A DNA stretch of 4,748 nucleotides from the IMG/VR virus record IMGVR_UViG_2675903396_000016. One strand, 5' to 3'. Origin of the DNA: a virus. Lineage: Duplodnaviria > Heunggongvirae > Uroviricota > Caudoviricetes. Shown here one piece after another: positions 1,136 to 1,458 of the stretch (positions are counted from its first letter, which is position 1; each line of letters begins with the position of its first letter). The translations under genes were made by a program, and so were the position numbers. The notes below the pieces were generated by a model. That model was not told the origin of the DNA. It made no database searches and saw only the letters and a program-made list of their open reading frames with translations.

Positions 1136-1458
1136 CCGGAAAAAGGAAAGTTTGAGAAACGCGATCTGGCACAGGCGGTGATTAACGCCGCATACCTGGT
1201 GGCCTGTGCAGATGGTGAATGTGAGGCTTCCTAGAAAGCGAAGATCGAACAGGTACTGCGTAATCAGCCAGCGCTGTCCGCGTTTACGTCAGAAATTAAT
1301 GCGATTAGCGCAACCATTATCGGTCAGCTGGATACGAACTTTAAAATTGGTCGTCGTGCGGCGTTACGTGAGATCGAGGATGTGAAACACGATACGCGTG
1401 AAGAATGCTGGAAGAGATTGCCGGTGTTCTGGGGCTTCGTCTGGAGAATCACCTGTGA
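1136..1458 (+). pseudogene. Decayed TerB-like (tellurite-resistance TerB fold) gene: 5' truncated, in-frame amber, frameshift
   Basis: Frame 2 (1136-1395) reads PEKGKFEKRDLAQAVINAAYLVACADGECEAS*KAKIEQVLRNQPALSAFTSEINAISATIIGQLDTNFKIGRRAALREIEDVKHDTREE, where VACADGxxxxxEKAKIxxVL is the characteristic TerB pattern. Three lesions: no start codon after the TAA at 1133-1135; an in-frame TAG at 1232-1234 where GAG would be expected; and continuation in frame 1 (1402-1455: RMLEEIAGVLGLRLENHL, stop 1456-1458), implying a 1-nt indel near 1396-1404. Confidence 0.5.

What the first reader, a model, noticed from the sequence alone, without database searches (positions are those of the whole stretch)
1136..1458. 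TerB-like gene inactivated by three independent lesions in the cargo slot
The TerB signature (VACADGECEAS-x-KAKIEQVL) is unmistakable, yet the gene lacks its 5' end, carries an in-frame TAG at 1232-1234 where a Glu codon is expected, and shifts frame near 1400. Multiple lesions indicate an old, decaying cargo gene rather than a sequencing error. TerB-fold proteins recur in stress and phage-defence contexts, so intact relatives in related prophages would be worth examining.
Basis: partly seen in the sequence, partly recalled or inferred. Interest (0 to 1): 0.45.

Follow-up and report, generated by a model that had tools for sequence, protein, structure and literature searches.

The report
Dead phage TerB (tciA-like) gene remnant

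Summary
Window 1148-1458 is the remnant of a 143-codon TerB-domain gene, the lambdoid counterpart of phage P1 tciA. It lies between the Q antiterminator gene and the esterase and lysis genes.

Intact orthologues 97-98% identical exist in phages Evi, PPyecE_EH1910 and JLK-2012. Against them, all three lesions are real:
- **5' loss:** codons 1-17, the ribosome-binding site and all upstream DNA are gone. The junction is at 1147-1150.
- **Stop codon:** the invariant Glu46 codon GAG is TAG at 1232-1234.
- **Frameshift:** the shift "near 1400" is a net loss of 70 nt after 1403. It removes codons 103-126, including the second ADG motif.

The lesions are nested. The TAG occurs in 520 complete E. coli records, one of them a copy with a full-length 5' end. 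The 5' deletion is in about 450 records. The 70-nt loss was found nowhere else.

NCBI's PGAP annotation of near-identical loci already reads "TerB family protein, pseudogene, internal stop". The downstream 55-codon DUF3927 (tciB-like) gene at 1455-1622 is intact. Calling the gene "old and decaying" overstates it, because the remnant has almost no amino-acid changes. Interest is low.

The parts
107..928 (+). Q-type late antiterminator gene (context; marks the start of the late operon)
   Evidence: 273-aa ORF. Annotated 'antitermination protein' WP_000762928.1 in near-identical loci.
929..1147 (+). Leader DNA downstream of Q, with terminator-like hairpins at 962-978 and 1009-1026. In other lambdoid prophages and Stx2 phages this DNA continues into a 65-aa ORF, a DNA methyltransferase gene and tRNA genes.
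   Evidence: Terminator scan. Alignment to the O104:H4 prophage is colinear up to about window 1149 and then diverges. Window 929-1149 is 99.5% identical to phage Stx2_EH1910 (H210).
1147..1150 (+). Lesion 1: deletion junction in a shared AAAG. It joins the ribosome-binding-site region of the lost 65-aa ORF to codon K18 of the TerB gene. Codons 1-17, the TerB ribosome-binding site and all upstream cargo are missing.
   Evidence: Four-way alignment with Evi and EH1910. Alignment with O104:H4. Anchor at 1148 = codon 18. The same junction is in about 450 complete E. coli records.
1148..1403 (+). TerB/TciA-like remnant, segment A: codons 18-102 plus one base, in the frame of 1136. It contains the first ADG motif (VACADGECEAS).
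   Evidence: Alone this segment scores only 20.8 bits against PF05099, below the 24.4 cut-off (protein 2).
1232..1234 (+). Lesion 2: TAG in place of GAG (Glu46, the conserved acidic residue of the first ADGxxxxxE motif)
   Evidence: GAG in Evi and EH1910. E46 is invariant in alignment A2. The exact 60-mer with TAG is in 520 records. PGAP note 'internal stop'.
1403..1406 (+). Lesion 3: junction of a net 70-nt loss (68 nt deleted, AA retained, GG deleted). It removes codons 103-126, including the second ADG motif, and shifts the frame.
   Evidence: No junction-spanning match in 5,426 complete E. coli genomes. No exact 30-mer match in the viral, genome or metagenome collections.
1405..1458 (+). 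TerB/TciA-like remnant, segment B: codons 127-143 (MLEEIAGVLGLRLENHL) and the TGA stop, now out of frame with segment A
1455..1622 (+). Intact 55-codon DUF3927 / TciB-like gene for a small protein with two hydrophobic segments. Its GTG start overlaps the TerB stop (GTGA).
   Evidence: PF13064 60.6 bits against a cut-off of 25. phrog_1470 'TciB-like' E=1.5e-29. Annotated DUF3927 family protein in relatives. Hydropathy peaks around residues 5-22 and 29-47.

Best explanation
Window 1148-1458 is a non-functional remnant of a phage accessory gene. That gene encoded a 143-aa TerB-domain protein, the lambdoid counterpart of phage P1 TciA.

**The intact module.** The gene lies in the late operon between Q (often followed by tRNA genes) and the esterase and lysis genes. 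It is translationally coupled, through a GTGA overlap, to a 55-aa DUF3927/TciB-like protein with two hydrophobic segments.

**How it decayed in this prophage lineage.**
1. A GAG>TAG nonsense mutation hit the invariant Glu46 of the first ADGxxxxxE motif.
2. A deletion of inferred multi-kilobase size, ending in an AAAG microhomology, removed the 65-aa ORF and tRNA region together with the TerB promoter-proximal DNA, the ribosome-binding site and codons 1-17.
3. In this window only, a net 70-nt loss removed the second ADG motif and shifted the frame.

**Present state.** No start codon, ribosome-binding site or continuous frame remains, so no TerB protein can be made. The DNA is probably just carried along in the Q-dependent late transcript (inferred).

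**Shown versus inferred.** The lesions, their positions and their distributions are shown. The order of events, with TAG first, is inferred from the nested distribution. Recombination between prophages could blur that order.

**Function of the intact module.** This is inferred only from homology. The TerB domain is a helical, acidic-motif domain proposed to bind metal and associate with the membrane. Paired with a small membrane protein, it plausibly modifies envelope or stress physiology, or blocks superinfection, in the host cell. This has not been tested. P1 tciABC is dispensable for plaque formation.
For: - **Family and intact relatives:**
  - The repaired protein scores E=1.4e-14 against Pfam TerB.
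  - A profile of 26 homologues hits the solved TerB structure 2jxu_A at E=2.4e-15 over residues 13-137.
  - The AlphaFold2 model is all-helical with pLDDT 88.3.
  - Intact 143-aa orthologues are followed by a DUF3927 gene in Evi, PPyecE_EH1910 and JLK-2012.
  - P1 tciA-tciB-tciC has the same layout, and P1 TciB matches DUF3927 at E=7e-31.
  - PHROG 632 'tellurite resistance' and PHROG 1470 'TciB-like' both match.
- **Lesions:** mapped.
- **Distribution:**
  - The window is 99.9% identical to O55:H7 and O157:H7 prophages.
  - PGAP marks the locus 'pseudo, internal stop'.
  - 455 records share the overall architecture.
  - 520 records share the TAG 60-mer.
  - The same TAG occurs in a full-length-5' copy.
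  - The 70-nt loss is absent everywhere else searched.
- **Redundancy:** the same genomes carry other copies that keep the 5' end, for example NZ_AP018488.1. The intact-type 5' end is in 1,095 of 5,426 genomes. Intact protein clusters have 680 and 848 members.
- **Dispensability:** P1 tciA and tciB scored non-essential in a CRISPRi screen (PMC10695390).
Against: - Nothing contradicts the pseudogene status.
- The third lesion rests on this single sequence, so an assembly artefact cannot be excluded.
- The order of lesions could be confounded by recombination among co-resident prophages.
- The function proposed for the intact module has no experimental support in the literature searched.
- The structural match to solved TerB-like folds by Foldseek is weak: best E=0.012, TM 0.55-0.62 to 2h5n; 2ou3 at E=1.
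Confidence: 0.92

Rival explanations
1. The lesions, or some of them, are sequencing or assembly errors, and the gene is intact in the real genome.
For: The 70-nt loss is found in no other sequence: not in 5,426 complete E. coli genomes, nor in the viral, genome or metagenome collections. Its junction is complex.
Against: The TAG and the 5' junction recur in about 450-520 independently assembled complete genomes and are annotated as a pseudogene there. The gene is therefore dead whether or not lesion 3 is real. A 70-nt loss is also not a typical base-calling error.
Confidence: 0.08
2. The remnant is retained because it still does something. It might act as a 5' leader that sets expression of the intact tciB-like (DUF3927) gene or of the downstream STnc100-like sRNA, or TciB might function on its own once TciA is lost.
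For: - The DUF3927 ORF is intact in every pseudogene-bearing locus inspected.
- It keeps a GGAG 9 nt upstream of its GTG start (read from the sequence).
- Phage 434 carries TciB without any TciA.
- An O104:H4 prophage keeps a DUF3927 fragment with no TerB.
Against: - The loci are 99.6-99.9% identical, so an intact ORF may simply reflect too little time to decay.
- DUF3927 differences between alleles are few and not clearly biased towards synonymous changes (1 synonymous and 1 non-synonymous against Evi; 5 and 4 against EH1910).
- Translational coupling to TerB is lost.
- There are no expression data.
Confidence: 0.12
3. The TAG is read through or recoded, or a shorter functional TerB-like protein is made from an internal start.
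For: Gene callers have produced 116- and 120-aa proteins that lack the N-terminal 23-27 residues of the intact protein in other genomes (P0043, P0049).
Against: - In the window, the only in-frame start upstream of the TAG is GTG at 1178, which would give an 18-codon peptide.
- There is no start with a ribosome-binding site after the TAG.
- The second ADG motif and the invariant residues E104, A114, G118 and E124 are deleted.
- The C-terminus is out of frame.
- The remnant alone falls below the Pfam cut-off.
Confidence: 0.02

Closest known systems
TciA-TciB(-TciC) of phage P1 (Lobocka et al. [quoted passage not shown]
   Same: A TerB-domain gene of about 141-143 codons is followed directly by an overlapping DUF3927 gene of about 54-55 codons. 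The repaired protein is 39-52% identical to P1-family TciA. PHROG families 632 and 1470 match.
   Different: The window copy is a pseudogene. It sits in a lambdoid late operon downstream of Q, not next to P1 ban. No tciC equivalent was looked for.
Intact lambdoid orthologues: phage Evi VUF53482.1, PPyecE_EH1910 BCI50129.1 ('TciA/TerB-like protein'), JLK-2012 tciA; E. coli 'tellurite resistance TerB family protein' clusters
   Same: 97-98% amino-acid identity over the retained codons. The same downstream DUF3927 gene. The same position upstream of the SASA esterase or lysis genes.
   Different: They keep codons 1-17, Glu46 and codons 103-126. The window has lost all three.
PGAP-annotated pseudogene in O157:H7 and O55:H7 prophages (e.g. 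E3165_RS16580 in LSU61, ECO55CA74_RS27630 in RM12579)
   Same: The same prophage at 99.8-99.9% identity, with the same 5' junction and the same TAG.
   Different: Those copies are 70 nt longer. The window adds a private deletion and frameshift.
TerB of the ter tellurite-resistance operon (Klebsiella TerB, PDB 2JXU; Pfam PF05099)
   Same: The same domain family by profile: E=2.4e-15 to 2jxu_A and PF05099.
   Different: It is not part of a terZABCDE operon. It is paired instead with a DUF3927 membrane peptide, and no tellurite phenotype has been shown.

Membership tests
TerB domain family (Pfam PF05099) | Profile match above the curated gathering score | tested here: met
   The repaired ancestral sequence scores 54.8 bits against a cut-off of 24.4. 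Intact Evi scores 60.2 bits. The profile hits solved TerB 2jxu_A at E=2.4e-15. The window's own uninterrupted part scores only 20.8 bits, below the cut-off, so membership is by descent and not as a functional domain.
TerB domain family (Pfam PF05099) | Two acidic ADGxxxxxE-type motifs, intact | tested here: not met
   The Glu of the first motif is TAG (1232-1234). The second motif (A116-D117-G118...E124) lies inside the 70-nt loss.
TerB domain family (Pfam PF05099) | All-helical bundle fold like solved TerB-type structures | tested here: inconclusive
   The AlphaFold2 model of the intact orthologue is all-helical, with pLDDT 88.3 and pTM 0.82. The Foldseek top hits are 2h5n (E=0.012, TM 0.55-0.62) and 2ou3, a COG3793 tellurite resistance protein (E=1.0, prob 0.87). 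This is consistent but weak.
Phage TciA-TciB module | A TerB-domain gene immediately followed by, and overlapping, a DUF3927 gene | tested here: met
   GTGA overlap at 1455-1458. The DUF3927 match is 60.6 bits. P1 has the same layout, as do Evi, EH1910 and JLK-2012.
Phage TciA-TciB module | Demonstrated tellurite or colicin resistance, or a cell-division phenotype | not testable with these tools
   The names derive from homology only (note). The literature found reports only that the genes are non-essential in P1 and variably present in P1-like elements.
Pseudogene | Loss of the start, a premature stop and a frame disruption relative to intact orthologues | tested here: met
   PGAP marks near-identical loci as pseudo.
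Known anti-phage defence systems (PADLOC-DB) | Significant match of the intact protein or its partner to a defence-system model | tested here: not met
   Only a marginal partial hit to PDC-S48 (E=0.0035, 14.5 bits, 35 residues). Nothing for DUF3927.

The most novel reading that the evidence does not exclude
In lambdoid prophages the TciA (TerB) partner is lost or broken repeatedly, while the small DUF3927/TciB membrane peptide persists. Examples are this lineage, phage 434 with TciB only, and an O104:H4 prophage with a DUF3927 fragment only. TciB may therefore be the active, independently useful element, for example a membrane-acting exclusion or lysis-timing peptide. TciA would then be a dispensable or counter-selected regulator of it.
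Probability: 0.12. Interest if true: 0.3.

Novelty: already known. Interest (0 to 1): 0.08.

Why it matters
It matters little in itself. The gene family, its position in lambdoid late operons and its pseudogene state in O157:H7 and O55:H7 prophages are all already in public annotation.

The only new item is a private 70-nt deletion in a gene that was already dead. That deletion could at most serve as a strain marker.

The wider open point is that the widespread tciA-tciB pair has no experimentally known function. Its intact-type 5' end is present in about a fifth of complete E. coli genomes, often in several copies. This window does not make that question more tractable than the many intact copies do.

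Tried and rejected
- **Searching for the deletion junction elsewhere.**
  - A 65-nt probe against 5,426 complete E. coli genomes gave only split matches spanning 135 nt.
  - An exact 30-mer found nothing in the viral, GTDB-genome or metagenome collections.
  - The deletion could therefore not be confirmed independently.
- **NCBIfam.** No family-level model matched. There were only sub-threshold hits to DjlA (27.8 bits against 162) and YmfL.
- **PADLOC.** No defence-system membership.
- **Foldseek against the PDB.** Only weak matches. The sequence-profile hit to 2jxu_A is the stronger evidence.
- **Literature.** Searches for tciA/tciB and DUF3927 found no functional study.
- **Simple microhomology for the 70-nt loss.** No single clean parse exists. 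It is 68 nt plus 2 nt with AA retained.
- **The 74-codon ORF at 1398-1622 as a new, extended TciB.** The deletion creates it by bringing an in-frame GTG upstream of the DUF3927 start. I rejected it as mechanical, because no ribosome-binding site precedes 1398.
- **The sigma-70 scan.** It did not flag a pR'-like promoter after Q. The TTGATT/TAAATT pair at 934-961 is only an eye-match, so I did not list it as a part.

Full report
**What the window is.** The 4,748-nt window is the start of the late region of a lambdoid prophage. It is 99.9% identical over its full length to prophages of E. coli O55:H7 (CB9615, RM12579) and O157:H7. Its features, in order, are:
- Q-type antiterminator gene, 107-928.
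- Leader with terminator-like hairpins, about 929-1147.
- The finding, 1148-1458.
- A 55-codon DUF3927 gene, 1455-1622.
- A SASA-family esterase gene, 1937-3874.
- DUF1378 and DUF826 genes.
- The start of a holin gene.

**Checking the observation.**
- The frame opening at 1136 reads PEKGKFEKRDLAQAVINAAYLVACADGECEAS*KAKIEQVL..., with TAG at 1232-1234.
- The C-terminal peptide MLEEIAGVLGLRLENHL* lies in another frame at 1405-1458.
- With the stop read as Glu and the gap filled from a near-identical relative, the protein matches Pfam TerB (PF05099) at 54.8 bits against a cut-off of 24.4 (E=1.4e-14).
- A profile of 26 homologues hits the solved TerB structure 2jxu_A at E=2.4e-15 over residues 13-137.
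- An AlphaFold2 model of the intact orthologue is all-helical, with pLDDT 88.3. Foldseek places the TerB-like structures 2h5n and 2ou3 among the top hits, though weakly.

The TerB assignment is therefore sound.

**Intact orthologues and the exact lesions.** A tblastn search of phage genomes found copies 97-98% identical in phage Evi and PPyecE_EH1910. Both are annotated as uninterrupted 432-nt genes, the latter as "TciA/TerB-like protein". Each is followed by a 168-nt gene that overlaps it by 4 nt. Phage JLK-2012, from O55:H7 DEC5E, has the layout Q, three tRNA genes, tciA, tciB, yjhS.

A four-way DNA alignment and codon bookkeeping map the three lesions.

*Lesion 1, the 5' loss.*
- Homology to the intact gene begins at window 1148, which is codon K18.
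- Everything upstream is unrelated to what precedes intact genes.
- That upstream DNA is instead the Q-downstream leader of other lambdoid prophages and Stx2 phages. There it runs on, past window 1149, into a 65-aa ORF, a DNA methyltransferase gene and tRNA genes (H210).
- The junction lies in an AAAG shared by both parents (1147-1150).
- A deletion therefore removed the upstream cargo together with the TerB ribosome-binding site and codons 1-17.

*Lesion 2, the stop codon.* GAG (Glu46) has become TAG at 1232-1234. Glu46 is invariant in the 26-sequence alignment.

*Lesion 3, the frameshift.*
- A net 70 nt is missing after 1403. The best parse is 68 nt deleted, AA retained and GG deleted.
- The loss removes codons 103-126. 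These include the invariant E104, A114, G118 and E124, and the second ADG motif.
- It shifts the frame.

**Are the lesions real, and are they independent?**
- NCBI's PGAP annotates near-identical loci as [quoted passage not shown].
- 455 complete E. coli records share the whole 929-1936 architecture.
- 451 records match the 127-nt probe that spans the junction at 99% identity or more.
- The exact 60-mer carrying the TAG is in 520 records.
- The same TAG also occurs in O55:H7 USDA5905, in a copy with a complete 5' end downstream of tRNA genes and a different Q gene. The TAG is therefore independent of the 5' deletion and probably older than it, unless recombination moved it.
- The 70-nt loss was found nowhere else:
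  - Every best match in 5,426 complete genomes is split in two pieces spanning 135 nt.
  - The junction 30-mer has no exact match in the viral, GTDB-genome or metagenome collections.
  - Outside the deletion, the window differs from RM12579 at only 3 positions in 3.4 kb.

Lesions 1 and 2 are thus certainly biological. Lesion 3 is private to this window, and an artefact cannot be excluded here. It makes no functional difference, because the gene was already dead.

**How decayed is it?** Over the 85 retained codons of segment A, the remnant differs from Evi at 16 synonymous codons and 2 non-synonymous ones. One of the two is the stop. The other, Y37C, also occurs in uninterrupted genes (P0064). 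Inactivation is therefore recent relative to allele divergence, and "old, decaying" overstates the case.

The same genomes usually carry other copies. The Evi-type 5' end is present in 1,095 of 5,426 genomes, with a median of two places per genome. O157:H7 PV15-279, for example, has both kinds of copy. Intact protein clusters are large, with 680 and 848 members. This redundancy is a plausible reason for relaxed selection, but that is an inference.

**What the intact thing is.** Phage P1 has the same arrangement, tciA-tciB-tciC. P1 TciA matches TerB and P1 TciB matches DUF3927 at E=7e-31. PHROGs files the two proteins as "tellurite resistance" (phrog_632) and [quoted passage not shown] (phrog_1470), both in the moron category.

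These names come from homology only. In the literature searched:
- P1 tciA and tciB scored non-essential in a CRISPRi screen (PMC10695390).
- The operon is a variable region, lost from about half of one P1-like subgroup (PMC9603915).
- TerB (PF05099) is listed as a conserved neighbour of the prophage sRNAs PasA and PasC (bioRxiv 10.64898/2026.05.13.724894).

PADLOC gives no defence-system assignment.

My mechanistic reading of the intact module is inferred, not shown. A cytoplasmic helical TerB domain with two acidic motifs is coupled to a small membrane peptide with two hydrophobic segments (hydropathy). Together they would act at the inner membrane when expressed. In this window the TerB half cannot be made.

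**The neighbouring DUF3927 gene.** It is intact at 1455-1622 and keeps a GGAG upstream of its GTG start. It has lost translational coupling to TerB. Phage 434 carries TciB without TciA, and an O104:H4 prophage keeps only a DUF3927 fragment. The least ordinary reading still open is therefore that TciB works alone. The evidence is thin. The pseudogene-bearing loci are nearly identical to one another, and the few allele differences are not clearly biased towards synonymous changes.

**Verdict.** The result is an ordinary, already annotated pseudogene of a known but functionally untested phage moron family. The only unrecorded feature is a private 70-nt deletion.

Noticed in passing
window 1630-1796 (+): A full-length match to the Rfam sRNA family STnc100 (RF02076): 101.6 bits against a gathering score of 47, E=4e-22. 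It lies directly downstream of the DUF3927 gene and upstream of the terminator at 1824-1850. A 2026 preprint links STnc100 to the PasD prophage sRNAs and notes esterase-gene neighbours.
   Followed up: partly
window 1455-1622 (+); L010:1492-1650 (phage 434); L006:4818-4949 (O104:H4): The DUF3927/TciB-like gene persists where its TerB partner is dead (this window) or absent (phage 434, which has TciB only). A 43-codon DUF3927 ORF, shorter than the usual 55 codons, remains in an O104:H4 prophage with no TerB similarity nearby.
   Followed up: partly
L009:1398-1826 (E. coli O55:H7 USDA5905): A second TerB pseudogene with a complete 5' end carries the very same GAG>TAG change. It sits behind a different Q gene and tRNA genes. 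This suggests either an old nonsense allele or gene conversion between co-resident prophages.
   Followed up: partly
protein P0004 (E. coli PA11): A 197-aa fused TerB-DUF3927 ORF, named 'zinc-finger family protein' by its source. Its sequence departs from the separate proteins around the TerB stop / DUF3927 start overlap, which suggests a frameshift there.
   Followed up: no
window 929-1033 (+): Directly after Q there are two terminator-like hairpins with T runs (962-978 and 1009-1026). A weak TTGATT-16 nt-TAAATT pair lies at 934-961. This resembles the pR'/tR' arrangement of lambdoid phages. The promoter is an eye-match only, and the scan did not flag it.
   Followed up: partly
window 1398-1622 (+): The 70-nt loss brings an in-frame GTG (1398) upstream of the DUF3927 start, which creates a mechanical 74-codon extended ORF. 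No ribosome-binding site precedes it.
   Followed up: no
window 4700-4748: Seven of the 11 differences from O157:H7 LSU61 cluster in the last 49 nt, inside the holin gene. This suggests a recombination boundary between prophage alleles there.
   Followed up: no
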